NCBI RefSeq assembly: GCF_055900595.2
Contig: NZ_CM148325.1
Direction: 5' to 3' (one strand)
DNA length: 64,000 nucleotides
The notes below the pieces were generated by a model, which saw only the letters and a program-made list of their open reading frames with translations, had not been told where the DNA came from and did no database searches. A program made the translations under genes and the position numbers. Shown here piece by piece: positions 11,526 to 44,634 of this stretch (its first letter is position 1; the number at the start of each line of letters is the position of its first letter).

Positions 11526-12386
11526 TTACAGTCCCAGCAGGCCGCAAGCATAACCCGCGATACCGATGACGAAGAAGCCAACGATGATCCACAGCGGATT
11601 AACTTTTTTGCGCAGCAGCCACATACAAGCAAAGGTCAGCAGTAGCGGTACCAGGCCCGGCATTAACTGGTCAAGAATAGTCTGGACAGTGGTAACGTGT
11701 TCTTTGCCCGTCTGGTCAGTAATGCGAGAGACAACCAGCGGGATGTTGACATGTGTCCACTTGTTAACCAATGCCCCCATGACAAACAGGCCGAGAATAG
11801 ACGCCCCTTCCGTCAGTTTTTGCAGGAAGCCGCCACCCATATCTTTAACGATATCGATACCTTTGGAGTAACCATACGCTACGCCGTAGTAACGGGTTGC
11901 CAGACGCACCAGGTTAAACAGGATGAAGAACAGAAGCGGACCTAACAGGCTGCCGCTCATCGCGATACCGGCACCCAGCGCTGCAAATACCGGACGTACG
12001 GTTCCCCAGAAGATCGGGTCGCCCACACCAGCCAGCGGGCCCATCAAACCAACTTTGATACCGTTGATAGCACCGTCATCGATCTCTGCGCCATTAGCAC
12101 GCTGTTCTTCCAGCGCCAGGGTTACGCCGAGAATCGGCGCAGCCACGAACGGCTGGGTGTTAAAGAACTCCAGGTGACGGCGAATAGCTTGTTTACGAGC
12201 TTCGTTGTTCTCAGGGTAGAGGCGACGAATTGCCGGTACCATAGAGAAGCAGAAACCCAGTGCCTGCATACGTTCGAAGTTCCATGAACCCTGGAAGAGG
12301 TTAGAACGCAGGAAGACGCCACGAATATCACTTTGAGTGAGTTTTTTCTCGGTGGTAGTTTGAGTTGTATCAACCATTTCGCTCAC
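11526..12386 (-). CDS. manZ: mannose PTS EIID component ManZ
   Basis: ORF translation ...VDTTQTTTEKKLTQSDIRGVFLRSNLFQGSWNFERMQALGF...; true start may be the Met 3 codons in (12377). Confidence 0.92.
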   Translation of the reverse strand: MSEMVDTTQTTTEKKLTQSDIRGVFLRSNLFQGSWNFERMQALGFCFSMVPAIRRLYPENNEARKQAIRRHLEFFNTQPFVAAPILGVTLALEEQRANGAEIDDGAINGIKVGLMGPLAGVGDPIFWGTVRPVFAALGAGIAMSGSLLGPLLFFILFNLVRLATRYYGVAYGYSKGIDIVKDMGGGFLQKLTEGASILGLFVMGALVNKWTHVNIPLVVSRITDQTGKEHVTTVQTILDQLMPGLVPLLLTFACMWLLRKKVNPLWIIVGFFVIGIAGYACGLLGL

Positions 12387-33497: not shown

Positions 33498-34583
33498 TTA
33501 ACGCAAAAGAATTTTGCAAATCGCGTCGGCAACCTGTGGCGTGGTGGCATTGCCTTTCATATCAGGTGTTTTCGGCCCGTGAGCAATCACTTCTTCAATC
33601 GCGGCCAGAATACCGTTATGCGCTTGCTGGAAACGCTCATCGCCATTGCCGAGAAAATCGAGCATCATTGCACCGGCCCAAATCGTGGCGATAGGGTTAG
33701 CAATATTTTTCCCGTAGATATCCGGCGCGGAACCGTGGACTGGCTCGAAGAGCGACGGGAAAGTGCGTTCGGGATTCAGGTTGGCGGATGGGGCAATGCC
33801 AATGGTGCCGGTGCAGGCCGGGCCAAGATCGGAAAGGATATCGCCAAACAAATTGGACGCCACTACCACATCGAAGCGTTCCGGCTGCATCACAAAACGT
33901 GCGCAGAGAATGTCAATATGCTGCTTGTCCCAGCGGATCTCCGGGTAATTCTCAGCCATTGCTTCCACTCGCTCATCCCAGTACGGCATGCTGATGGCTA
34001 AACCGTTCGATTTAGTGGCAGAAGTTAGCGTCTTACGTGGGCGGCTTTGCGCAAGTTCAAAGGCATAGCGCAAAATACGATCGACACCACGACGAGTAAA
34101 TACCGATTCCTGAATGACGACTTCATGCTCTGTACCTTCATTCACTCTACCGCCGAGCGAGGAATATTCGCCTTCGGTGTTTTCCCTGACCACGTAAAAA
34201 TCGATGTCGCCAGGCTGTTTTCCCGCCAGCGGGCAGGGAACGCCAGGAAAGAGACGAACCGGGCGCAGGTTGACGTACTGGTCGAACTCACGACGAAATT
34301 TCAGCAGCGAACCCCACAACGAAATATGGTCCGGAACGGTATCCGGCCAGCCGACGGCACCAAAATAGATGGCGTCGAAACGGCTAAGTTGCTCATGCCA
34401 GTCGTCCGGCATCATTTTACCGTGATGGCTGTAATACTCGCAGCTCGCCCACTCCATTTGCTCAAAACTCAAGGCGAAGCCCCAGCGCTCAGCGGCAGCC
34501 TGTAACACGCGAATCCCTTCAGGAAGGACTTCTTTGCCAATCCCGTCTCCCGGGATCGCAGCAATACGCATCGTTTTCATCAT
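33498..34583 (-). CDS. dmlA: D-malate/3-isopropylmalate dehydrogenase DmlA (YeaU)
   Basis: 361-aa ORF MMKTMRIAAIPGDGIGKEVLPEG..., isocitrate/isopropylmalate dehydrogenase family. Confidence 0.9.
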   Translation of the reverse strand: MMKTMRIAAIPGDGIGKEVLPEGIRVLQAAAERWGFALSFEQMEWASCEYYSHHGKMMPDDWHEQLSRFDAIYFGAVGWPDTVPDHISLWGSLLKFRREFDQYVNLRPVRLFPGVPCPLAGKQPGDIDFYVVRENTEGEYSSLGGRVNEGTEHEVVIQESVFTRRGVDRILRYAFELAQSRPRKTLTSATKSNGLAISMPYWDERVEAMAENYPEIRWDKQHIDILCARFVMQPERFDVVVASNLFGDILSDLGPACTGTIGIAPSANLNPERTFPSLFEPVHGSAPDIYGKNIANPIATIWAGAMMLDFLGNGDERFQQAHNGILAAIEEVIAHGPKTPDMKGNATTPQVADAICKILLR

Positions 34584-34685
34584 TGGGTTCTCACTTCCTG
34601 ACCATCAAAATTGACAATACCCTCATCCTATAATTGACTGAAAAGGAATTAATCCCCGTAACTGGTGAAACATAAAACACGAATC

Positions 34686-35609
34686 ATGAATAATTTACCG
34701 CTGCTGAACGATTTGCGCGTCTTTATGCTGGTGGCTCGCCGGGCTGGTTTTGCCGCTGTGGCGGAAGAATTGGGCGTTTCACCGGCGTTCGTCAGCAAGC
34801 GCATCGCCTTGCTGGAGCAAACGCTAAACGTGGTGTTGTTACACCGCACCACCCGCCGCGTCACCATTACCGAAGAAGGAGAGCGGATTTATGAATGGGC
34901 GCAGCGGATTTTGCAGGATGTTGGTCAAATGATGGACGAACTTTCTGACGTGCGTCAGGTGCCGCAGGGGATGCTGCGTATTATCAGCAGCTTTGGTTTT
35001 GGACGACAGGTAGTGGCTCCGGCGTTATCAGCGCTGGCGAAAGCGTATCCGCAACTGGAGTTACGTTTTGATGTGGAAGACCGACTGGTCGATTTGGTCA
35101 ATGAAGGCGTCGATCTCGATATTCGCATTGGCGATGATATCGCCCCTAATTTAATCGCCCGCAAACTGGCGACTAATTACCGCATTCTCTGCGCGTCGCC
35201 GGAATTTATTGCGCAACATGGCGCGCCGAAACATTTAACCGATCTTTCTGCATTGCCGTGCCTGGTCATTAAAGAGCGCGATCATCCTTTTGGTGTCTGG
35301 CAATTACGCAATAAAGAAGGCCACCATGCGATTAAAGTTACCGGCCCACTGTCGTCTAATCATGGAGAAATTGTCCATCAGTGGTGTCTCGATGGGCAGG
35401 GGATTGCTCTGCGCTCCTGGTGGGATGTTAGCGAAAACATTGCCAGTGGTCATTTAGTACAAGTGCTACCGGAATATTACCAGCCAGCAAATGTCTGGGC
35501 CGTTTATGTTTCAAGGCTGGCGACGTCAGCGAAAGTGCGGATAACGGTAGAATTTTTACGCCAGTATTTTGCCGAGCACTACCCGAATTTTTCACTGGAC
35601 CACGCCTGA
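34686..35609 (+). CDS. dmlR: LysR-type regulator DmlR (YeaT)
   Basis: Track ORF 34665..35609 trimmed to ATG at 34686 (MNNLPLLNDLRVFMLVARRAGFAAVAEELGVSPAFVSKRI...); divergent from dmlA. Confidence 0.9.
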   Translation: MNNLPLLNDLRVFMLVARRAGFAAVAEELGVSPAFVSKRIALLEQTLNVVLLHRTTRRVTITEEGERIYEWAQRILQDVGQMMDELSDVRQVPQGMLRIISSFGFGRQVVAPALSALAKAYPQLELRFDVEDRLVDLVNEGVDLDIRIGDDIAPNLIARKLATNYRILCASPEFIAQHGAPKHLTDLSALPCLVIKERDHPFGVWQLRNKEGHHAIKVTGPLSSNHGEIVHQWCLDGQGIALRSWWDVSENIASGHLVQVLPEYYQPANVWAVYVSRLATSAKVRITVEFLRQYFAEHYPNFSLDHA

Positions 35610-35717
35610 TTAATGATTCAATTATCGGGTTGATATCAGGTTAAACCCTGATTTTCTCCTTTCTAAGCCGCTAGAGATTGGTTAGCATATTCACCTTTAA
35701 TCGCGCATGATCGATAG

Positions 35718-36374
<657 letters not shown>

Positions 36375-36457
36375 TGCTTTCAGCCCGCGTTATCGCGGGC
36401 TTCCTGCCTGTAATCTTTCCTTATTCATCGCTGATACGGTGCTAAAGAGTAACCAAT

Positions 36458-36482
36458 AAATGGTATTTAAAATGCAAATTAT
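36458..36482 (+). promoter_or_regulatory. candidate NsrR operator upstream of yeaR-yoaG
   Basis: imperfect palindrome aatGGTATTTAAAATGCAaat resembling the NsrR 11-1-11 consensus, about 65 bp upstream of yeaR. Confidence 0.4.
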
Positions 36483-36546
36483 CAGGCGTACCCTGAAACG
36501 GCTGAAATAAACTGTTTTCAGCACATTCATCGAAGGAGGGAAAAGG

Positions 36547-36906
36547 ATGCTGCAAATCCCACAGAATTATATTCATACGCGCTCAACGCCTTTCTGGAAT
36601 AAACAAACTGCGCCTGCCGGAATATTCGAACGTCATCTTGATAAAGGAACGCGCCCGGGGGTTTACCCACGCCTTTCCGTTATGCATGGGGCGGTCAAAT
36701 ATCTCGGCTACGCTGATGAACACAGTACAGAGCCTGATCAAGTGATCCTTATCGAAGCGGGGCAGTTTGCGGTGTTCCCTCCAGAAAAGTGGCACAACAT
36801 TGAAGCCATGACTGACGACACTTATTTCAACATTGACTTCTTCGTTGCTCCTGAAGTCCTGATGGAAGGCGCGCAACAACGAAAAGTCATTCATAACGGG
36901 AAATGA
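36547..36906 (+). CDS. yeaR: DUF1971 protein YeaR
   Basis: 119-aa ORF MLQIPQNYIHTRSTPFWNKQTAPAGIFERHLDKGTRPG... Confidence 0.85.
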   Translation: MLQIPQNYIHTRSTPFWNKQTAPAGIFERHLDKGTRPGVYPRLSVMHGAVKYLGYADEHSTEPDQVILIEAGQFAVFPPEKWHNIEAMTDDTYFNIDFFVAPEVLMEGAQQRKVIHNGK

Positions 36907-36909
36907 ATC

Positions 36910-37092
36910 ATGGGCAAAGCAACGTATACCGTGACCGTCACCAATAACAGTAATGGCGTTTCTGTCGATTATGAAACAGAGACGCCGATGACTTTGCTGG
37001 TGCCAGAAGTGGCGGCTGAAGTGATAAAAGATCTGGTGAATACCGTGCGTTCTTATGACACGGAAAACGAACATGATGTTTGTGGTTGGTAA
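36910..37092 (+). CDS. yoaG: DUF1869 small protein YoaG
   Basis: 60-aa ORF MGKATYTVTVTNNSNGVSVDYETETPMTLLVPEVAAEVIKDL..., 3 nt after yeaR stop. Confidence 0.85.
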   Translation: MGKATYTVTVTNNSNGVSVDYETETPMTLLVPEVAAEVIKDLVNTVRSYDTENEHDVCGW

Positions 37093-37239
37093 TTATCACT
37101 GATCGTAGATGGCGCAATTTCTGCGCCATCGCAAAAAAATCCTCCGTGATGCTTGTCACAAATCTTGCCCTCCTGATGTTGTGCTATGCTTTTTATCAGC
37201 GACTAACCCGCTAATGCAAAACAGATAAGTGAGGAAACA

Positions 37240-37488
37240 ATGGGCATTCTGTCATGGATTATTTTTGGGCTTATTGCCGGTATTCTGGCGAAGTGGATCA
37301 TGCCAGGTAAAGATGGTGGTGGATTCTTTATGACTATCCTGCTGGGGATAGTCGGTGCCGTAGTCGGCGGATGGATCAGCACGCTGTTTGGCTTTGGTAA
37401 AGTCGATGGCTTCAATTTTGGCAGCTTCGTGGTTGCCGTTATTGGTGCGATTGTCGTGCTGTTTATCTACAGAAAGATCAAAAGTTAA
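37240..37488 (+). CDS. yeaQ: GlsB/YeaQ/YmgE-family small membrane protein YeaQ
   Basis: 82-aa ORF MGILSWIIFGLIAGILAKWIMPGKDGGGFFMTILLGIVGAVVGGW... Confidence 0.88.
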   Translation: MGILSWIIFGLIAGILAKWIMPGKDGGGFFMTILLGIVGAVVGGWISTLFGFGKVDGFNFGSFVVAVIGAIVVLFIYRKIKS

Positions 37489-37501
37489 CGCGTAAATTGC
37501 A

Positions 37502-37537
37502 CAAAGGCTGCACACAGGCAGCCTTTGCTATTTTTTA
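37502..37537 (+). terminator. intrinsic terminator downstream of yeaQ
   Basis: 10-bp stem caaaggctgc / gcagcctttg followed by a 6-T run. Confidence 0.75.
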
Positions 37538-37546
37538 GATGTGACG

Positions 37547-37621
37547 TTACCACCATCCCAACTCAGTGCCGAGAACGACAATAATCGCTACGCCCATCAT
37601 AATAATCGTTGTTTTTTTCAT
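37547..37621 (-). CDS. yoaJ: small hydrophobic protein, 24 aa (YoaJ-like)
   Basis: Translated by hand on minus strand: MKKTTIIMMGVAIIVVLGTELGWW*; name assignment yoaJ versus yoaK from memory. Confidence 0.65.
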   Translation of the reverse strand: MKKTTIIMMGVAIIVVLGTELGWW

Positions 37622-37623
37622 CT

Positions 37624-37722
37624 TTACGCTCCCGGGGCAGCATAGCCGCCAATAAAAAACCATGCTAAAAATACGACCGCTGTAATAAAGATTACAACCG
37701 GAAAAATAATACCGATTCGCAT
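37624..37722 (-). CDS. yoaK: small hydrophobic protein, 32 aa (YoaK-like)
   Basis: Translated by hand on minus strand: MRIGIIFPVVIFITAVVFLAWFFIGGYAAPGA*; stop lies 2 nt before the start of the 24-aa ORF. Confidence 0.65.
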   Translation of the reverse strand: MRIGIIFPVVIFITAVVFLAWFFIGGYAAPGA

Positions 37723-37754
37723 GTTATCACCAATCAAAAGGATGTGAATACGCC

Positions 37755-38780
37755 TCAGGAATGTAGCGCTGAATGCGCGACAAAAGGTGTTTTCTGTTTG
37801 TGTTTTTTCTCCTGATACATCGCGATATCGGCAGCATGCAGGGCGCTGTCTGCATCGGTCGTTTCAGGATCGACTTCTACTATGCCAAGACTGGCACCAG
37901 GATAATACAAATCAACATCACCTAAGTGATATTCTCCGCGTATTTGCTGTTGAATACGTTCTCGCAGCGATGGAATATCCGCATTCTCATTGTTCAGTGA
38001 AACAACCAAAAACTCATCACCGCCGAGACGACCAATAACTTCGCCATTTTGCTGGAGCGTATTAAGGCGCTCGCCAACCTGAATAAGAAACAGATCGCCA
38101 CTATTATGACCAAAACGATCATTGATTAATTTGAAGTTATCCAGATCGATAAATGCGATCATTATCTTATGGTTAAGATGCCTCGCAAGAGAAAACAGCG
38201 TCGTCAGGTTTTCAAAAATCGCCCGCCGATTCGGTAGCCCGGTTAACGAGTCGGTATACGATTGCGCAATCAGTGCGGCATTTGCTTCGCGCAGCTGTTC
38301 AACCAGCGCCTCTTTTTGAATATATTGTGCAATCAGTCCGGCGAATAGCTGTAAAACCTGTTCCGCGCGTTCACTCCACTGGCGCTTCTCACTGCTGGCG
38401 GCGCAAAGTGTGCCATAGAATGATCCATCCGGTAAGTGAATTGGCGTGCTCAGAAATGTGGTGATGCCAAGATTTCGTGCCGCAACACAGTCGCCCCAAC
38501 GGTCGGGGACTTCATCGCTGAAAAAGCAGTTTTCATCAATGGCGCGTTTGCATAACGAGTAATCCCACGAGACGGTAAAATTCTCCGGGATGTGCATTTT
38601 CTGGCTATTACGGGCAAACATTATATGCTGCAGGCGCGCTTCGACATCCACTTTGGTCAGGTAGGTTGACTCCATATCAGTGACCATTTCCAGCATCTCC
38701 AGAAGCTGTCGGACCAGACTTTCCAGTGACTGTTCTTTGGCAAGGGATTGCGAGACGCGGGCGATAATCTGATCTGACAC
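37755..38780 (-). CDS. dgcP: diguanylate cyclase DgcP (YeaP), GAF plus GGDEF
   Basis: Track ORF 37755..38909 trimmed to GTG at 38780 ((M)SDQIIARVSQSLAKEQ...); GGDEF motif RLGGDEF present; 341 aa. Confidence 0.88.
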   Translation of the reverse strand: MSDQIIARVSQSLAKEQSLESLVRQLLEMLEMVTDMESTYLTKVDVEARLQHIMFARNSQKMHIPENFTVSWDYSLCKRAIDENCFFSDEVPDRWGDCVAARNLGITTFLSTPIHLPDGSFYGTLCAASSEKRQWSERAEQVLQLFAGLIAQYIQKEALVEQLREANAALIAQSYTDSLTGLPNRRAIFENLTTLFSLARHLNHKIMIAFIDLDNFKLINDRFGHNSGDLFLIQVGERLNTLQQNGEVIGRLGGDEFLVVSLNNENADIPSLRERIQQQIRGEYHLGDVDLYYPGASLGIVEVDPETTDADSALHAADIAMYQEKKHKQKTPFVAHSALHS

Positions 38781-38962
38781 GAAACAACTCCAGGATACGG
38801 CGGGTAAATGCTGATTATTTAATCTTTGCAGGCATGATAAAACATCATCAACAAAGATGAAACAAGACGTAATATGTTTTGAGTGAATGTAATAAAAATA
38901 GTGCTGCAAAACAAAACGATACCGCGATACTCTAAGCTTGGATAAATATGTGAGATCAATAA

Positions 38963-39217
38963 ATGAAAATTATCAGTTTTGTTCTGCCTTGCTTGCTGGT
39001 CCTGGCTGGTTGTTCAACCCCTTCTCAGCCAGAAGCACCTAAACCGCCGCAGATTGGTATGGCAAATCCGGCGTCGGTCTATTGCCAGCAGAAGGGCGGG
39101 ACGCTCATTCCTGTGCAGACAGCGCAAGGGGTCAGCAACAATTGCAAATTACCGGGCGGTGAAACGATTGATGAATGGGCATTGTGGCGACGGGACCATC
39201 CGGCTGGTGAAAAATAA
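38963..39217 (+). CDS. yoaF: DUF333 lipoprotein YoaF
   Basis: 84-aa ORF with lipoprotein signal MKIISFVLPCLLVLAGCS. Confidence 0.85.
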   Translation: MKIISFVLPCLLVLAGCSTPSQPEAPKPPQIGMANPASVYCQQKGGTLIPVQTAQGVSNNCKLPGGETIDEWALWRRDHPAGEK

Positions 39218-39238
39218 CCGCCGGATGCTGCACTAAAA

Positions 39239-39586
39239 TCACAAGCTACGTAGCCAGTCTGCCAGCACCAGCGCATGGTTCTGTGTGGTGTTTTTTGCTG
39301 AGTAGAGCAGGGTCAGCGGCTGTTTTTTGGCGATGTCTGCCAGCCGCTTTCCTTCTTGCTCGTGTTGCGCCAGTTCTGCAAGATATTGCTCGCGAAAGGT
39401 TGCAAAATCGACGACTTCGCCGTGAAAGGCTTTGCGCAGCTCCGTTGACGGCGTGATTTCTTTATCCCACTCATCAAGGGCTAAATCGGTTTTTTTGATA
39501 CCGCGTGGCCAGAGGCGGTCGACCAGTACGCGATAACCATCGCTCTGTTCAGCCGGATCATAAACGCGTTTGCACTGAATATTCAT
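39239..39586 (-). CDS. yeaO: DUF488 protein YeaO
   Basis: Track ORF 39239..39607 trimmed to ATG at 39586 (MNIQCKRVYDPAEQSDGYRVLVDRLWPRG...). Confidence 0.8.
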   Translation of the reverse strand: MNIQCKRVYDPAEQSDGYRVLVDRLWPRGIKKTDLALDEWDKEITPSTELRKAFHGEVVDFATFREQYLAELAQHEQEGKRLADIAKKQPLTLLYSAKNTTQNHALVLADWLRSL

Positions 39587-39640
39587 CGTATTTGTTCTTC
39601 CTTTCACGCATGATTTGTCACGTCACTATAGCACCGGATA

Positions 39641-40822
39641 TTAGCGAATTTCTTTGTCTCTCCCGGCGCAAAGTCCGAAAATCGCCATCAGTAGTGAAAG
39701 TATTGCAACACCCATCAGTGGTACGGACCAGTCACCGTTAGCATCGTGTATTTTACCCATCAGCGGCGGCCCACAGGCTGCCAGCAAATACCCGACGGAT
39801 TGTGCCATCCCCGAGAGTGCTGCCGCCTGATGCGCAGAACTTGCCCGAAGACCAATGAACGTCAACCCCAGTATCATTGTTGCGCCGGAACCAAAACCGA
39901 AAAGCAGAGTCCAGGTGATCGCGTGTGCTGGCATAAAGCAGAGCCCAACCGCGCCCACTGCGCACATCAAGGCAACGAACGCTGCAATACCACGCTGATC
40001 TTTCACATGATGTAAGAAAAGTGGGATCAGCAAACCGGGAGCTGCTGTGGCTAGTTGCAGCAAACCATGCAGTGAACCCGCCTGTGCTTCGCTATAGCCG
40101 TGACTGATGAGGATCGCCGGAAGCCAGCCAATAATCACGTAATAGACGAGTGAGTTGATCCCAAGAAACAATGTTACCTGCCAGGCAAGCGGCGAACGCC
40201 AGATACCCCGAGTATGTAAGGCGCGTGAGGTACTCAAATTTGCATGTTGTTGACTTCGCCACTGTGGCAGCCATAAAAAAAGAGCCAGCAGAGGAAAACA
40301 CATCAGCATGAGCAACGCGCCTTGCCAGCCAAAACCGTTCAAAGCCAGCGGCACGACCATAGCCGATCCCAGTGCCGCCGCAGCTCCCATTGTCAGGGAA
40401 TATGCGCCGGTAAGTCTGGCGACGGAATGAGGGAAATCGCGTTTAATTAATCCTGGCAGTAAGACATTGCCTAATGCAATCCCACCGCCAATGACCGCTG
40501 TACCGCCAAATAATAAGTAAGGCGAAGGGAGAGAGCGAATTGCGATACCTGCACAGATCAAAAGTAACGCGGCAAACAGGCTACGTTCCATACCAAAACG
40601 TCGCGCCACCGGGGCGGCAAGAGGTGAGATTAGCGCAAAGGCCAATAATGGCAGGGTGGTTAATAAGCCGGTTTGCGCCGTCGTTAGCGAGTAAGCGGAA
40701 CGAATCGTATCCAGTAACGGTGCTGCGCCGGTAAAGGTGACGCGTAATGTTGTGGCAATCATCAGAATGCCAGCGATAAGGACAATCCTGTTTTTGCCGC
40801 TTAATGAAGTTGAACAGGCCAT
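39641..40822 (-). CDS. nimT: MFS transporter NimT (YeaN)
   Basis: 393-aa multi-TM ORF MACSTSLSGKNRIVLIAGILMIATTLRVTFTGAAPLL... Confidence 0.88.
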   Translation of the reverse strand: MACSTSLSGKNRIVLIAGILMIATTLRVTFTGAAPLLDTIRSAYSLTTAQTGLLTTLPLLAFALISPLAAPVARRFGMERSLFAALLLICAGIAIRSLPSPYLLFGGTAVIGGGIALGNVLLPGLIKRDFPHSVARLTGAYSLTMGAAAALGSAMVVPLALNGFGWQGALLMLMCFPLLALFLWLPQWRSQQHANLSTSRALHTRGIWRSPLAWQVTLFLGINSLVYYVIIGWLPAILISHGYSEAQAGSLHGLLQLATAAPGLLIPLFLHHVKDQRGIAAFVALMCAVGAVGLCFMPAHAITWTLLFGFGSGATMILGLTFIGLRASSAHQAAALSGMAQSVGYLLAACGPPLMGKIHDANGDWSVPLMGVAILSLLMAIFGLCAGRDKEIR

Positions 40823-40918
40823 ATGTTTCTCATTGATACAAACGAGGCTGTACCTTACCGTTTTTATTGTTATGTTGAATCAAGTTAAAATGACAAATTA
40901 TCGCTAAATTCGGACAAA

Positions 40919-41740
40919 ATGATGCACAGGTTGAATCTCAATGGTTATGAACCCGACCGACACCATGAAGCCGCGGTCGCATTTTGTATTCACGCCGGAA
41001 CGGATGAGTTAACCAGTCCTGTACATCAGCACCGCAAAGGGCAGCTGATACTGGCGCTACATGGTGCAATTACCTGTACGGTGGAAAATGCTTTGTGGAT
41101 GGTGCCGCCACAATATGCGGTTTGGATACCGGGCGGGGTGAAACATAGCAATCAAGTGACAGCTAACGCTGAACTCTGTTTTCTGTTTATAGAGCCCAGC
41201 GCAGTGACAATGCCGACAACATGTTGCACATTGAAAATATCGCCCTTATGCCGGGAATTAATTTTAACCCTGGCAAACAGGACGACGACTCAGCGTGCTG
41301 AGCCGATGACCCGCAGATTAATTCAGGTCCTGTTTGATGAACTCCCTCAGCAGCCACAACAACAGCTGCACCTGCCCGTTTCTTCTCATCCTAAAATCCG
41401 CACGATGGTGGAGATGATGGCGAAAGAGCCTGTCGAGTGGGGGGCATTGGGGCAATGGGCTCGCTTTTTTGCGATGAGTGAACGCAATCTTGCCCGACTG
41501 ATAGTGAAAGAGACGGGGTTGAGTTTTCGCCAGTGGCGTCAGCAGTTACAGCTGATTATGGCGCTTCAGGGATTAGTGAAAGGCGATACTGTACAGAAAG
41601 TTGCTCATACGCTGGGGTATGATTCAACAACGGCCTTTATTACTATGTTTAAGAAAGGCCTGGGGCAAACGCCAGGCCGATATATTGCGGGATTAACTAC
41701 TGTTTCCCCACAATCAGCGAAACCAGACCCGCGGCAATAA
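40919..41740 (+). CDS. nimR: AraC-family regulator NimR (YeaM)
   Basis: 273-aa ORF, cupin-like N-terminus and AraC HTH C-terminus; divergent from nimT. Confidence 0.88.
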
Positions 41741-42143
41741 GCGGGCCAACCGGTACGCCGCGAAACAGCGCCACGCCCAAAACAGTGCCCACCAGCAGCC
41801 CGGCGACCAGTTGCGGCTGGCTGCCCATTAACGTCACGCCGCGCCCACCTAGCCAGGAGACAATAACGCCTACTGCAATTGCCACCAGCGATTTCCAGTT
41901 CAGAAACGAGTGAATCAGGGTTGAGGGCGGTAGCGTCCCGCTGGCGATGGGGGCCATAACGCCAATCGTCAGAATGATTATCCCGATACTTAGCCCCTGT
42001 TTTTCAATCCACGGGAAAAAGGTGCTTAACGGTGTGACGCGGACAATGATTAACACCAGAATTGAAACGGCGACAGTGGTGTTATGACTGATAAAGCCCA
42101 GCGCAGCTAACCCGAGCAGGATCAGCAAAGTGACATCAAACAT
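41697..42143 (-). CDS. yeaL: DUF441 membrane protein YeaL
   Basis: 148-aa [39 protein letters not shown]... Confidence 0.85.
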
Positions 42144-42312
42144 CGTGGTTTCCTTGCCAAAAAATAATAAGCCTGCTTACTTTACGCTTGCTGCAGGAAG
42201 GAAGTAGAAAATCTTTACGTTTTTTGCATAAAAAATCAGGCGAACTGTCATCAAACTGCCATTTGTGCACGCTAACAATAACGTGAAAACAGCTATCTCC
42301 CCGGGGCATACT

Positions 42313-42417
42313 ATGAACGATCAAATGTTTGTCGAGACACTGATTATCACGTCATCGTTTTTTGCCATTGCTGTTGTGCTGGTTTTGTCCGTTCTGCTTA
42401 TTGAACGGACAGGCTAG
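42313..42417 (+). CDS. yoaI: small membrane protein YoaI (34 aa)
   Basis: Translated by hand: [34 protein letters not shown]; absent from track (under 60 aa). Confidence 0.75.
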
Positions 42418-42921
42418 TTACGCAGTGCGGCGGAAATTGACCAGTTCTGGTTGCGCAATGCGCAAATAATCCGCGGTTTTCAAAATAACGGATTTATCCA
42501 GCATGCCTGCATTGAAGGCGATTTCATCAAATCGTTCGAAGAGTAGGGGGTCGGCAACCAGTTTGAGTTTTGGATGGAAGCTGAAAGGGGGGATCGCGCC
42601 GAAGACACAGCCTGTGAGTTCATCGACTTCCGCCGGGCTGGCCAACGAAGCGCGTAATCCGCCTATATGGATGGCAAGTTGGCTCAGATCGGCCTGTTGA
42701 TCGGCAGCGAGGATCGCCAGAACATGTTGATTTACGCCATTGCCTTTGACTTTACATACCAGTGCCTTAGCCCCCTGGCCTAAAGCGGTGCCACGAATTT
42801 CTGACACCGCTTCGCATTTACCTACCGCCTCATGGGTAACGACGCGGAAGTCAGCACCTTCTTGTGATAATAAAGCGATTAACCGCTGATGCGTCACGCT
42901 TCCTTTAGCCATTTCAGTCAT
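42418..42921 (-). CDS. yeaK: YbaK/ProX-family aminoacyl-tRNA deacylase YeaK
   Basis: 167-aa ORF MTEMAKGSVTHQRLIALLSQEGADFRVVTHEAVGKCEAVSEIRG... Confidence 0.88.
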   Translation of the reverse strand: MTEMAKGSVTHQRLIALLSQEGADFRVVTHEAVGKCEAVSEIRGTALGQGAKALVCKVKGNGVNQHVLAILAADQQADLSQLAIHIGGLRASLASPAEVDELTGCVFGAIPPFSFHPKLKLVADPLLFERFDEIAFNAGMLDKSVILKTADYLRIAQPELVNFRRTA

Positions 42922-42963
42922 TTCACGCTCCTGAGATTACAAGCAAACAACCACAGAAGATTA

Positions 42964-44454
42964 TCATGAACGGCTGTTTTTGTTCTGCTTATTGACATAT
43001 AAACGCTCATCGGAAGCTTTATACGCATCATGTAACGTATCGTTTTCTTTCATCGCATAAATACCGGAAGAGAAGCCGATCTCTTTCTGCGGCGCGATAT
43101 GTTGCAGACGTTTTTCGATACGTTCAGGCAGTTGTGCTGCAATTTGCGGCGTCGAATCGACAAGAATGATGCAGAATTCATCGCCACCGAGTCGGATGGC
43201 ATAATCACTTTTACGAATCGACTGTTTAATCGCCTGAGCTAATAACGTAATCGCTAAATCTCCTTCCTGATGACCGAGCGTGTCATTTATTTGCTTTAAC
43301 TTGTCCATGTCAATTGCAATAAACATCACCGAAGAACCAGATTGCACCAGTTTTTGCAACCGCTGCTCCAGTTCAGGGGTTAATATTTTGCGATTATACA
43401 GTCCGGTCATCGCATCACTAATATTTTCTCGCGACACATTTTGGTATAAACGGAAGTGCATCCGCACCATATTCAGCAAAATTAACGCCGTCAAAATCCA
43501 GAACAGAACGCTTTTCCACGAAGATGTGATAAAGTAAAGAATATCAATGGATAACGATACACGAATGCCGCCCGGTAAGTCATGGACGTAACTGACATAC
43601 TGGAACAGATTATCTTCGCTCTGGTTGATGATAATGTCGCGCCCAGAATCTGTATCGGTTAGCGTGACATTGAGAAAACGCCAGAGGAGAGGGCGGTCAT
43701 GCGTGTAAAAGATATTCCGCAGATTGTTTTTGTTAATATCCAGCAGCACAATTCCTTTTAGCTGCCCTGCAACATACACTGGCGTCAGCAAACTCATCAC
43801 GTTCTGTTTAGTACGCTGATCCTGGTAAATGCTCGATAATACGGTGCGACCGGTAAAAACTTTTTCAATATCTTTGCGATCGATGCCAATGCTTCCTGAC
43901 TGCAGGAAGGACCAGTTATTCATCGCAAAGTACTCAACATTAACCGGCTCATAAAAATAGACATAGAGGTCATTGAGATCGAGATAATAGTGAAATTTCT
44001 CTTCGGCCATTCCAAGACCTGAACCATAATCATCCTGGTGGCGGTTGCCTTCCACTGCCTGATCAAAAGCGGGTAATAGTGCTGCAGCTTCCACAATTGT
44101 GTCGCATTCAGTGGATGCGGTTTGTAGTGTACCGTGTAAGCCCGTGTACTTATGGGCAGTCAGGTTTAAGCCATGGGTATTATTGGCAGACTCAAAAGCC
44201 TCGCAGATGGTACGCCGCTGTTCTGGCGACACTTCCGACTGCTCAGCAGCGAGAGCGCGCATCACATGCGCGGCAATACTCTGATTTTGATACTTGTCAT
44301 AAAGAAAGGAGGAATCTGCTCTCTGCACGATATAGCGCAGATAGGCACTCATTGCTCTGTCGCTGGCGACAAGTTCAAAAATAAGGAAGGAAGATGTCAG
44401 CACAATGACACTTGCGGCGATAAAATGCCGGAGCATTCTATGGTGCAATTTCAT
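42964..44454 (-). CDS. dgcJ: diguanylate cyclase DgcJ (YeaJ), membrane sensor plus GGDEF
   Basis: Track ORF 42964..44634 trimmed to ATG at 44454 (MKLHHRMLRHFIAASVIVLTSSF...); GGDEF motif RLGGDEF; 496 aa. Confidence 0.88.
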   Translation of the reverse strand: MKLHHRMLRHFIAASVIVLTSSFLIFELVASDRAMSAYLRYIVQRADSSFLYDKYQNQSIAAHVMRALAAEQSEVSPEQRRTICEAFESANNTHGLNLTAHKYTGLHGTLQTASTECDTIVEAAALLPAFDQAVEGNRHQDDYGSGLGMAEEKFHYYLDLNDLYVYFYEPVNVEYFAMNNWSFLQSGSIGIDRKDIEKVFTGRTVLSSIYQDQRTKQNVMSLLTPVYVAGQLKGIVLLDINKNNLRNIFYTHDRPLLWRFLNVTLTDTDSGRDIIINQSEDNLFQYVSYVHDLPGGIRVSLSIDILYFITSSWKSVLFWILTALILLNMVRMHFRLYQNVSRENISDAMTGLYNRKILTPELEQRLQKLVQSGSSVMFIAIDMDKLKQINDTLGHQEGDLAITLLAQAIKQSIRKSDYAIRLGGDEFCIILVDSTPQIAAQLPERIEKRLQHIAPQKEIGFSSGIYAMKENDTLHDAYKASDERLYVNKQNKNSRS

Positions 44455-44634
44455 GATAAATGGCACTCCTTCGGTTAGTGAAACGAGAAAACCAGATAAA
44501 GTTCGATTGCGGCCTGGCACAGGGGCGCTAATTATACTCATCTCTGCGCCGCTGGGGAGGGGAAATTTAGGGGTAATAGTAATAAATTGTATGCAAAAGC
44601 CACGCAAAAAGCATGGCTCTGAATATTTTTGCAC

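What the first reader, a model, noticed from the sequence alone, without database searches (positions are those of the whole stretch)
37547..37722. Two tandem small hydrophobic-protein genes (24 and 32 aa) between yeaQ and dgcP
Hand translation of the minus strand gives two back-to-back ORFs, MKKTTIIMMGVAIIVVLGTELGWW and MRIGIIFPVVIFITAVVFLAWFFIGGYAAPGA, each essentially a single transmembrane helix. They match the small proteins I recall as YoaJ and YoaK in E. coli. Both are absent from the 60-aa ORF track.
Basis: partly seen in the sequence, partly recalled or inferred. Interest (0 to 1): 0.35.

Follow-up and report, generated by a model that had tools for sequence, protein, structure and literature searches.

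The report
Known small membrane genes yoaK, yoaJ
The two tiny back-to-back genes are real and already catalogued: they are E. coli yoaK and yoaJ, which encode single-helix inner-membrane peptides of unknown function. The only new point is that relatives of yoaK also sit unannotated right behind the repressor gene of many lambda-like prophages.

Summary
Observation confirmed and interpretation supported. On the minus strand, 37722..37624 encodes the 32-aa MRIGIIFPVVIFITAVVFLAWFFIGGYAAPGA. Two nucleotides after its stop, 37621..37547 encodes the 24-aa MKKTTIIMMGVAIIVVLGTELGWW.

- **Identity:** both peptides are identical to K-12 YoaK (b4676) and YoaJ (b4675). They pass the NCBIfam cut-offs and are annotated in RefSeq. 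The locus is present in 5418 of 5426 complete E. coli genomes.
- **Coding status:** across about 22 genera of Enterobacteriaceae both ORFs keep their length, their abutting arrangement (-4 to +3 nt) and strong purifying selection. dN/dS is 0.15 for yoaJ and 0.06-0.17 for yoaK, against >1 in the wrong frames.
- **Operon:** they lie downstream of dgcP in a conserved nimT-yeaO-yoaF-dgcP-yoaK-yoaJ-yeaQ block, probably as one operon with translational coupling.
- **Literature:** papers report tagged-protein detection, ribosome footprints, type II membrane topology for YoaJ and RseP cleavage, but no function.

Hence: already known, low interest.

Side result: solo YoaK-family genes lie 12-52 nt downstream of cI-like repressors in 65 of 75 phage or prophage loci (12-172 nt overall). 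This is the slot that holds rexAB in lambda. The gene is unannotated in phages HK106 and mEp234. This suggests, but does not show, a lysogen-expressed and possibly anti-phage role for the family.

The parts
37624..37722 (-). yoaK CDS (32 aa plus TAA stop): YoaK family small inner-membrane protein
   Evidence: ORF and translation. NF033821, 69.1 bits against a cut-off of 32; identical to K-12 b4676; dN/dS 0.06 (0.17 on the codons the search pattern left free); single helix at residues 3-24, pLDDT 90.6.
37547..37621 (-). yoaJ CDS (24 aa plus TAA stop): protein YoaJ, small type II inner-membrane protein
   Evidence: ORF. NF011343, 60.4 bits against a cut-off of 54; identical to K-12 b4675; a 24-aa orthologue abuts the yoaK stop in 60 distinct sequences; dN/dS 0.15, against 1.2 and 2.3 in the shifted frames.
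37726..37731 (-). Shine-Dalgarno-like GGTGAT, 3 nt before the yoaK ATG. It is complementary to the AUCACC part of the 16S rRNA 3' end.
   Evidence: Read directly. Function is inferred.
37629..37633 (-). Shine-Dalgarno GGGAG for yoaJ, embedded in yoaK codons 30-31 (CCG GGA), 7 nt before the yoaJ ATG. The yoaK stop and the yoaJ start are 2 nt apart, the geometry expected for translational coupling.
   Evidence: Read directly; the stop-to-start distance stays between -4 and +3 nt in every complete 24-aa orthologue. Coupling is inferred.
37501..37528 (.). G+C-rich hairpin (10-11 bp stem) between the convergent yoaJ and yeaQ genes. It is a canonical intrinsic terminator for yeaQ, with a T-run on the plus strand. 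It is the probable 3' end of the dgcP-yoaK-yoaJ transcript, although the U-tract on the minus strand is weak.
   Evidence: terminator scan, plus strand 37502-37527 followed by CTATTTTTTA; fold of -23.4 kcal/mol, z = -2.0.
37755..38780 (-). dgcP (yeaP), a GAF-GGDEF diguanylate cyclase and the upstream gene of the probable dgcP-yoaK-yoaJ operon. Its stop lies 32 nt before the yoaK ATG.
   Evidence: annotation. GAF plus GGDEF domains; dgcP lies directly upstream of yoaK in 111 loci. (PMC4620388): RNA-seq-based operon call yeaP-yoaK-yoaJ.

Best explanation
These are the known E. coli genes yoaK (32 aa) and yoaJ (24 aa).

Shown here or in the cited literature:
- Both are genuine protein-coding genes under purifying selection.
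- They are conserved as an abutting pair in a fixed chromosomal neighbourhood across Enterobacteriaceae.
- Each product is essentially one hydrophobic helix with a basic N-terminus and a short conserved C-terminal tail. The YoaK motif is W21-F22-x-x-G-G-Y-A-x-P-G. The YoaJ motif is G18-x-x-[LF]-G-W-W.
- Published work reports YoaJ as an integral membrane protein in type II (N-in/C-out) orientation. It reports both peptides as detectable in cells and as cleavable by the intramembrane protease RseP in some assays.

Inferred:
- The pair is transcribed with dgcP from its vegetative promoter and ends at the hairpin shared with yeaQ.
- yoaJ is translationally coupled to yoaK, because the stop and start are 2 nt apart and the yoaJ ribosome-binding site lies inside the last yoaK codons. 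The two peptides would therefore be made together in a fixed ratio.
- Conservation sits in the membrane helix and the periplasmic tail, and only 2-5 residues face the cytoplasm. The pair therefore most likely acts within the membrane or at its periplasmic face, as a small two-helix module that binds and modulates a larger envelope protein. That is how the characterised small proteins AcrZ, MgrB, MgtS and CydX work.

The partner and the physiological role are unknown.
For: - Identity.
- Coding status and selection. All 238 pattern matches lie in intact ORFs, nearly all of 30-35 aa. YoaJ is exactly 24 aa in all but one orthologue. dN/dS is 0.15 and 0.06, against >1 in the other frames.
- Synteny and operon: dgcP directly upstream in 111 loci; nimR-nimT-yeaO-yoaF-dgcP-yoaK-yoaJ-yeaQ conserved; RNA-seq operon call; no terminator between dgcP and yoaJ, hairpin after yoaJ.
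- Coupling geometry.
- Helix and topology: hydropathy; helix 3-24, pLDDT 90.6; PMC4597795: YoaJ type II, integral to the membrane, co-precipitates with RseP.
- Expression: tagged YoaK detected; ribosome footprints on yoaK; YoaJ reported as induced by diamide, citing Hemm 2010.
- RseP cleavage: (both cleaved in vitro, 'class II' substrates).
- dgcP expression: (DgcP under RpoD control, expressed in all growth phases).
Against: - No partner protein or phenotype is known. A deletion spanning yeaJ-yeaV had no growth effect in M9 glucose, and the authors list yoaK and yoaJ as of unknown function (PMC9769844).
- Neither peptide appears as a chain in any solved structure. They are therefore not stoichiometric subunits of any complex solved so far.
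- A YoaK-YoaJ interaction is untested.
- YoaK occurs alone in Buttiauxella and in all phage copies, so it does not strictly need YoaJ.
- The hairpin has only a weak U-tract on the yoaJ strand.
- RseP cleavage was not seen with chromosomal RseP levels.
Confidence: 0.85

Rival explanations
1. The YoaK family is at heart a prophage 'lysogeny-module' peptide. It is made from the repressor operon in lysogens and acts at the inner membrane to protect the lysogen, for example by superinfection exclusion or another anti-phage or envelope effect. On this view the chromosomal yoaK-yoaJ pair is a domesticated relative, or the source, with a related activity.
For: - Solo YoaK-family ORFs lie on the same strand 12-172 nt after a CI-like (HTH plus S24) repressor gene in 75 loci, and 12-52 nt after it in 65 of them. 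These include phages HK106, mEp234, mEp506 and a Klebsiella phage.
- In mEp234 no terminator intervenes before Timm.
- The copies pass the NCBIfam YoaK cut-off at 54.9-67.8 bits and are under purifying selection, with dN/dS 0.12-0.20.
- They follow two different CI clusters, while the genes after them vary: HicAB and many unknowns.
- Other copies sit among accessory genes such as Bro-N, ImmA/IrrE, NYN and an ADP-ribosyltransferase.
- One provirus has a YoaJ-like peptide in the same slot.
- The cI-to-N region is a known hotspot that houses rexAB and bstA, and it is highly transcribed in lysogens (PMC8585504).
Against: - No phenotype has been tested.
- There is no match in PADLOC or PHROGs.
- The window copy is a core chromosomal gene in conserved synteny, not in a prophage.
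- The HK106-type copy occurs in only 6 of 5426 E. coli genomes.
- Position alone does not establish function.
Confidence: 0.25
2. YoaK and YoaJ are accessory factors of DgcP. They would tether or regulate the soluble GAF-GGDEF cyclase at the membrane for local c-di-GMP signalling.
For: dgcP lies directly upstream on the same strand in 111 loci. An RNA-seq-based operon call covers the three genes. DgcP has no membrane segment of its own, only GAF plus GGDEF domains.
Against: - The yoaK-yoaJ pair is kept in at least 10 species-representative genomes where no dgcP ORF lies directly upstream. In at least four of these dgcP is absent between yoaF/yeaO and yoaK. L002 shows the same.
- Phage YoaK copies have no cyclase nearby.
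- Only 2-5 residues of either peptide face the cytoplasm, while conservation is in the helix and the periplasmic tail. This leaves little surface for a cytosolic enzyme.
Confidence: 0.12
3. They are type I toxin-like hydrophobic peptides (in the manner of Hok, Ibs, Ldr or TisB). Their synthesis would normally be held down, and they would damage the membrane when over-made.
For: They are small and very hydrophobic. They were screened alongside Hok toxins as RseP substrates. A phage homologue lies next to a hicAB toxin-antitoxin pair.
Against: - There is no antisense or other RNA family match in 3.5 kb around the locus.
- They have ordinary ribosome-binding sites and sit in an operon with a housekeeping-promoter gene.
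- The tagged protein is detectable in normal cultures.
- They are single-copy core genes in fixed synteny across genera, unlike the patchy, multi-copy type I loci.
Confidence: 0.05
4. They are chance ORFs in the dgcP 3' untranslated or terminator region, and any conservation is at the RNA or DNA level.
For: Very short ORFs are common: 582 ATG-ORFs of 20-50 aa in the window. YoaJ does not stand out by hydropathy alone.
Against: Third-position variability is 4-9 times that of the second position, and dN/dS is 0.06-0.15 in frame against 1.2-3.1 out of frame. ORF length and start are preserved in 60-121 distinct sequences. The six differences from K-12 are all synonymous. Published work reports protein detection and ribosome footprints.
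Confidence: 0.01

Closest known systems
E. coli K-12 MG1655 yoaK (b4676, YP_002791242.1) and yoaJ (b4675, YP_002791243.1)
   Same: The amino-acid sequences, the 2-nt spacing, the orientation and the neighbours (dgcP upstream, convergent yeaQ downstream) are all identical. The surrounding 10 kb is collinear at 97.5% identity.
   Different: Six synonymous nucleotide differences in 176 nt. At this locus the window's strain belongs to a minority lineage: only 14 of 5418 genomes are at least 99% identical.
Characterised small inner-membrane regulators of E. coli (AcrZ, MgrB, MgtS, CydX, KdpF). This is a functional analogy from general knowledge and from the reviews cited in PMC10470546.
   Same: They are under 50 aa, have a single transmembrane helix, are encoded by short ORFs missed by length cut-offs, and are often co-transcribed with a larger gene.
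   Different: There is no sequence similarity and no known partner. Unlike CydX, AcrZ and KdpF, neither peptide appears in any solved complex. YoaK and YoaJ come as a coupled pair.
Lysogen-expressed genes in the cI-to-N slot of lambdoid prophages (lambda rexAB, BstA)
   Same: Phage-borne YoaK-family genes occupy this same slot, directly after cI on the same strand and before the variable cargo and Timm. PMC8585504 describes the slot as a diversity hotspot with high lysogenic transcription.
   Different: YoaK has no sequence relation to RexA, RexB or BstA, and no defence phenotype has been tested. The copy in the window is chromosomal and not in a prophage.
Type I toxins (Hok, Ibs, Ldr, TisB families)
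   Same: They are small, hydrophobic, single-helix inner-membrane peptides. Some are also RseP substrates.
   Different: No antisense RNA or Rfam family is found at the locus. The genes sit in an ordinary operon, in conserved single-copy synteny, and the product is detectable without induction.

Membership tests
YoaK family small membrane protein (NCBIfam NF033821; Pfam PF28021 in precomputed annotations) | Score at or above the curated cut-off of the family model over its full length | tested here: met
   69.1 bits against a cut-off of 32, residues 1-32 on profile positions 1-32. The local Pfam copy has no YoaK model. Precomputed hits label the homologues PF28021:YoaK.
YoaK family small membrane protein (NCBIfam NF033821; Pfam PF28021 in precomputed annotations) | Orthology with E. 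coli K-12 b4676: same sequence and same chromosomal position | tested here: met
   100% amino-acid identity, downstream of dgcP, in a collinear 10-kb block.
YoaK family small membrane protein (NCBIfam NF033821; Pfam PF28021 in precomputed annotations) | About 30-35 aa with one transmembrane helix and the conserved core G4, F7-P8, A15, W21-F22, G-G-Y27-A | tested here: met
   the invariant columns M1, G4, F7, P8, A15, W21, F22 and Y27 are all present; helix at residues 3-24; hydropathy window 2.98.
YoaK family small membrane protein (NCBIfam NF033821; Pfam PF28021 in precomputed annotations) | The protein is actually made and located in the inner membrane | not testable with these tools
   Literature only. 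A chromosomally tagged YoaK was detected (10.1101/511675), and ribosome footprints were reported (PMC4666370). The primary papers (Hemm 2008, Fontaine 2011) are not held.
Protein YoaJ (NCBIfam NF011343 / PRK14760) | Score at or above the curated cut-off of the family model over its full length | tested here: met
   60.4 bits against a cut-off of 54, residues 1-24 on profile positions 1-24.
Protein YoaJ (NCBIfam NF011343 / PRK14760) | Orthology with K-12 b4675: a 24-aa ORF abutting the yoaK stop, with the motif M-[KR]-K-[TS]-T ... G-x-x-[LFM]-G-W-W | tested here: met
   identical to b4675, with a 2-nt gap. The invariant residues M1, K3, T5, A12, G18, G22, W23 and W24 are all present.
Protein YoaJ (NCBIfam NF011343 / PRK14760) | Type II (N-in/C-out) integral inner-membrane topology | not testable with these tools
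   The two N-terminal lysines and the acidic, aromatic C-terminus fit the positive-inside rule (read from the sequence). PMC4597795 reports integral membrane association and cites Fontaine 2011 for the topology.
Type I toxin-antitoxin toxins (considered, not adopted) | A cognate antisense or overlapping regulatory RNA at the locus | tested here: not met
   no Rfam family match up to E = 1 in window 36000-39500 on either strand. An undescribed antisense RNA cannot be excluded.
Type I toxin-antitoxin toxins (considered, not adopted) | Toxicity on over-expression | not testable with these tools
Prophage lysogeny-module or superinfection-exclusion genes (considered for the family, not for the window copy) | Located within a prophage, in the repressor operon | tested here: not met
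   The window copy lies in conserved core synteny nimT-yeaO-yoaF-dgcP-yoaK-yoaJ-yeaQ. The feature is met by 75 homologous loci elsewhere.
Prophage lysogeny-module or superinfection-exclusion genes (considered for the family, not for the window copy) | Confers exclusion of, or defence against, infecting phage | not testable with these tools
   There is no match to PADLOC defence models. A phenotype would need experiments.

The most novel reading that the evidence does not exclude
YoaK is not only a chromosomal 'orphan' small protein but also a mobile peptide of the prophage lysogeny module.

- In at least 75 phage or prophage loci a solo YoaK-family gene sits directly behind the cI-like repressor, in the rexAB/bstA slot. 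It is unannotated in phages HK106, mEp234 and mEp506, and it is under purifying selection.
- Once, a YoaJ-like peptide takes the same place.

The most novel reading not excluded is this: these peptides are made in lysogens and act at the inner membrane against incoming phage or on an envelope machine. The conserved chromosomal yoaK-yoaJ pair would then be a domesticated two-peptide version of the same activity. That would give a first functional handle on two uncharacterised E. coli small proteins.
Probability: 0.25. Interest if true: 0.5.

Novelty: already known. Interest (0 to 1): 0.12.

Why it matters
For the scan, this is a positive control. A reader working from raw sequence recovered two genuine genes of 24 and 32 codons that any 60-aa ORF filter drops, and the tools confirm them completely. 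Biologically the locus itself adds nothing new, because yoaK and yoaJ have been catalogued since 2008 and remain without a known function.

The side observation is that YoaK relatives sit unannotated just after cI in many lambdoid prophages. It offers a cheap, concrete experiment (phage plating on strains that express or lack these peptides) that could give the family a function. It also flags a recurrent annotation gap in phage genome records.

Tried and rejected
I replaced them with a whole-library phmmer search and degenerate DNA patterns.

**Papers not available**
- The primary papers are not held: Hemm 2008, Hemm 2010, Fontaine 2011 and Hemm 2020. One PMC id that I recalled was wrong. Their content is cited only through papers that quote them.

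**Searches with no result**
- Rfam gave no match around the locus.
- The local Pfam copy has no model for either peptide.
- PHROGs and PADLOC gave nothing.
- PDB sequence and profile searches gave nothing meaningful.
- YoaK and YoaJ profiles are unrelated to each other (hhalign probability 2%).
- I looked for a second small hydrophobic ORF after the phage YoaK copies and found none that recurs.
- tblastn of YoaJ against GenBank phages found nothing, but short, low-complexity queries have little power there.

**Corrections and discarded tests**
- I recalled that dgcP is RpoS-dependent. PMC5635695 contradicts this and places it under vegetative RpoD control, so I dropped the idea.
- The promoter-like hexamers at 37748-37721 overlap the yoaK start codon and are no more frequent than in shuffled sequence. 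I do not use them.
- The stop-codon count over the joint yoaK-yoaJ block was ill-posed, because the block contains a frame change. I do not use it.

**Caveat on the yoaK statistics**
- The YoaK search pattern fixed several conserved residues, which biases the yoaK dN/dS downward. I therefore also report the value for the 15 unconstrained codons (0.17). yoaJ was not part of that pattern.

Full report
**1. The observation**

- An ATG at 37722 opens a 32-codon ORF, MRIGIIFPVVIFITAVVFLAWFFIGGYAAPGA, which ends at TAA 37626-37624.
- Two nucleotides later, an ATG at 37621 opens a 24-codon ORF, MKKTTIIMMGVAIIVVLGTELGWW, which ends at TAA 37549-37547.
- Upstream, the dgcP stop codon lies at 37757-37755, 32 nt before the first ATG.
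- Downstream, yeaQ (37240-37488, plus strand) converges on the pair.
- GGTGAT lies 3 nt before the first ATG. GGGAG lies 7 nt before the second ATG, inside the last codons of the first ORF.

Short ORFs are abundant, so their existence alone is not significant. The window has 582 ATG-ORFs of 20-50 aa. Only 7 have a 17-residue hydropathy window of at least 2.4, and only the 32-aa ORF among those also has a ribosome-binding motif. The 24-aa ORF peaks at 2.26 and would not stand out alone.

**2. Identity**

- An 801-nt stretch around the finding is present in 5418 of 5426 complete E. coli genomes. RefSeq annotates 'yoaK: YoaK family small membrane protein' and 'yoaJ: protein YoaJ' under it.
- Against K-12 MG1655, both peptides are identical to b4676 and b4675. 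The 176-nt block differs at six positions, all synonymous. The surrounding 10 kb is collinear at 97.5%.
- Both peptides exceed the curated NCBIfam cut-offs: NF033821 YoaK at 69.1 against 32 bits, and NF011343 YoaJ at 60.4 against 54 bits.
- The local Pfam copy has no model, but precomputed annotations carry PF28021:YoaK.

**3. Are they real genes?**

- A whole-library phmmer search with YoaK found 25 representative clusters.
- I then scanned for a degenerate DNA pattern of the YoaK core.
  - It matched 116 stretches in species-representative genomes. These come from about 22 named genera, all Enterobacteriaceae apart from one Serratia rubidaea, plus a few MAGs labelled only Enterobacteriaceae or Proteobacteria.
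  - It matched 115 stretches in IMG/VR viral contigs.

All 238 matches lie in intact small ORFs, nearly all of 30-35 aa and opening with M-[RK]-x-G, giving 121 distinct proteins.

Directly after the yoaK stop (-4 to +3 nt), a 24-codon ORF with the pattern M-[KR]-K-[TS]-T...G-x-x-[LFM]-G-W-W is present in 67 of the 71 complete dgcP-linked genome loci, giving 60 distinct sequences. The four exceptions are all Buttiauxella, where a terminator follows yoaK.

Pairwise Nei-Gojobori estimates are as follows:

| Gene | dN/dS, annotated frame | dN/dS, shifted frames |
|---|---|---|
| yoaJ | 0.15 | 1.2 and 2.3 |
| yoaK | 0.06 (0.17 on the 15 codons the search pattern left free) | 2.0 and 3.1 |

Third-position entropy is 4-9 times second-position entropy. 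This is a protein-level signature and rules out a chance ORF or a purely RNA-level element. No Rfam family matches the region.

**4. Anatomy and likely expression**

- Across Enterobacteriaceae the neighbourhood nimR-nimT-yeaO-yoaF-dgcP-yoaK-yoaJ-yeaQ is conserved. dgcP lies directly upstream on the same strand in 111 loci.
- An RNA-seq-based resource calls yeaP(dgcP)-yoaK-yoaJ a three-gene operon in K-12 (PMC4620388).
- No terminator-like site lies between dgcP and yoaJ.
- A 10-11 bp G+C-rich hairpin at 37501-37528 follows yoaJ. It is a canonical terminator for the convergent yeaQ and has only a weak U-tract on the yoaJ strand.
- DgcP is reported to be under vegetative RpoD control and present in all growth phases (PMC5635695). 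This corrected my own recollection of RpoS control.
- The 2-nt stop-to-start distance, its conservation at -4 to +3 nt, and the yoaJ Shine-Dalgarno inside yoaK codons 30-31 argue for translational coupling. This is an inference.

**5. The products**

- YoaK: the AlphaFold model built on a 49-sequence alignment gives one helix at residues 3-24 (mean pLDDT 90.6), followed by the non-helical tail GGYAAPGA. Invariant residues are M1, G4, F7, P8, A15, W21, F22 and Y27, with G26 and A28 nearly invariant.
- YoaJ: invariant residues are M1, K3, T5, A12, G18, G22, W23 and W24.
- Both peptides have basic N-termini, and their most conserved polar and aromatic residues are at the C-terminal end. This fits an N-in/C-out orientation.
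- The two families are unrelated to each other.

What the literature reports:
- YoaJ is integral to the membrane and type II, and it co-precipitates with RseP (PMC4597795).
- Both peptides are cleaved by purified RseP and in some in vivo assays, but not by chromosomal levels of RseP (PMC10470546).
- Tagged YoaK is detectable in stationary phase (10.1101/511675).
- yoaK carries ribosome footprints, about two-fold higher with RyhB, though this was not verified (PMC4666370).
- YoaJ is reported as induced by diamide (PMC12542507, citing Hemm 2010).
- No function is known. A yeaJ-yeaV deletion grows normally in M9 glucose (PMC9769844).
- Neither peptide occurs in any solved structure.

**6. How it most likely works**

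Shown: these are two co-located, co-conserved, selected genes for single-helix membrane peptides.

Inferred: they are co-transcribed with dgcP and made together through coupling. Only 2-5 residues face the cytoplasm and conservation sits in the helix and the periplasmic tail. They therefore most likely act within the membrane or at its periplasmic face, as a small module that binds a larger envelope protein. Characterised small proteins such as AcrZ, MgrB, MgtS and CydX work this way.

A role as a DgcP tether is less likely. The pair persists where no dgcP lies directly upstream (at least 10 species-representative genomes and L002), and almost nothing is exposed to the cytoplasm.

A type I toxin reading is unlikely. 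There is no antisense RNA family match, the genes sit in an ordinary operon, the synteny is single-copy and stable, and the product is detectable.

**7. Where the evidence led beyond the finding**

The more distant YoaK relatives are not chromosomal neighbours of dgcP.
- In 75 loci a solo YoaK-family ORF lies on the same strand 12-172 nt after a CI-like HTH/S24 repressor gene, and 12-52 nt after it in 65 of them. Of these loci, 66 are IMG/VR contigs, 4 are genome contigs and 5 are loci fetched individually.
- tblastn finds the ORF in phages HK106, mEp234 and mEp506, where nothing is annotated. It also finds it in Klebsiella phage ST974-OXA48phi18.2, where a 39-aa CDS over it is named 'CI transcriptional regulator'.
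- In the richly annotated mEp234 immunity region the ORF (L008 1562-1657) lies between cI (744-1457) and hicA (1821-2075). It has an AGGGA motif 8 nt upstream and no terminator before Timm at about 2957. This is the position of rexAB in lambda.
- These phage copies pass the NCBIfam YoaK cut-off at 54.9-67.8 bits and are under purifying selection, with dN/dS 0.12-0.20.
- They follow two different CI clusters and are followed by variable cargo. They have no YoaJ and no other recurrent small partner.
- They are absent from PHROGs v4 and PADLOC.
- PGAP does name the HK106-type copy 'YoaK family small membrane protein' in the 6 of 5426 E. coli genomes that carry it.
- Further solo copies sit among accessory genes: Bro-N, ImmA/IrrE, NYN, an ADP-ribosyltransferase, and a KTSC plus Gate membrane protein.
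- One provirus (L241) carries a YoaJ-like 24-aa peptide, 32.7 bits and below the cut-off, in the same post-cI slot.
- The cI-to-N interval is described as a mosaic hotspot that houses rexAB and bstA and is highly transcribed in lysogens (PMC8585504).
- No paper in the searchable library links YoaK to prophages. I cannot exclude that the link is noted elsewhere.

This supports a testable hypothesis, not a conclusion: the family has a lysogen-expressed and possibly anti-phage role.

**8. Verdict**

The feature is already known and ordinary, so the interest of the finding itself is low. The phage association of the YoaK family is the only element with some novelty. I rate the functional reading at about 0.25 probability and moderate interest if true.

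Noticed in passing
L008 (mEp234, EF120460.1) 1562-1657; L006 (HK106, NC_019768.1) 2501-2596; also mEp506 (PV340542.1): A 32-aa YoaK-family ORF (MRIGIVFPILVFIVAMGFMAWFIIDGYATPSG) lies unannotated between cI and hicA in the immunity region of these lambdoid phages. That is the slot lambda uses for rexAB. It passes the NCBIfam YoaK cut-off.
   Followed up: yes
L007 (Klebsiella phage ST974-OXA48phi18.2, MK448237.1) 2480-2599: The 39-aa CDS annotated 'CI transcriptional regulator' (QBP28606.1) covers the YoaK-family homologue, which is 71% identical to E. coli YoaK. The name looks like an annotation error.
   Followed up: partly
L241 (IMGVR_UViG_2854564814_000007) 11818-11892, plus strand: A solo YoaJ-like 24-aa ORF (MRKTTIFLIFIAIAVGVGSHFGWW; 32.7 bits on NF011343, below the cut-off of 54) sits 17 nt after a CI-like repressor that has a divergent Cro-like gene. 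This is the same slot that holds YoaK in 75 other loci. It is the only such case found.
   Followed up: partly
L033, L043, L084, L121 (Buttiauxella species): The dgcP-linked yoaK (subtype MKIGVLFPIAII...) is followed directly by a terminator hairpin, with no yoaJ. YoaK can therefore exist chromosomally without YoaJ.
   Followed up: partly
P0002, P0004, P0001; L239 and L072: Database proteins and loci occur in which a frameshift or lost stop fuses YoaK to a read-through of the yoaJ region. P0002 (57 aa) is an in-frame YoaK-YoaJ fusion. They may be sequencing errors or rare natural variants.
   Followed up: no
32 IMG/VR loci among L125-L239 (for example L127, L134, L144, L153): Many predicted proviruses end about 3 nt after a chromosomal-type yoaK, with dgcP just inside the contig. 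None of the usual upstream genes (nimT, yeaO, yoaF) is detected in them. The host dgcP-yoaK flank seems to have been included in the provirus call, which suggests a prophage inserted next to dgcP in those hosts. It may also mean that yoaK is scored as virus-like.
   Followed up: partly
window 37200-38000 and 34495-44495: At this locus the window's strain belongs to a minority E. coli lineage. It is 100% identical to strain Z0117EC0005 (dog, South Korea). Only 14 of 5418 genomes are at least 99% identical, and identity to K-12 is 97.5% over 10 kb without gaps.
   Followed up: no
window 37755-38909, minus strand: The longest dgcP ORF starts at a TTG at 38909 (384 aa), but RefSeq and K-12 annotate a 341-aa protein that starts at the GTG at 38780.
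   Followed up: no
CI-linked loci, 0-1500 nt downstream of the phage yoaK (for example L004, L012, L114, L137, L147, L194): The genes after cI-yoaK are highly variable: HicA/HicB and several unrelated proteins of 250-430 aa with unknown function. This is what one would expect of a cargo or defence hotspot. I did not characterise them.
   Followed up: no
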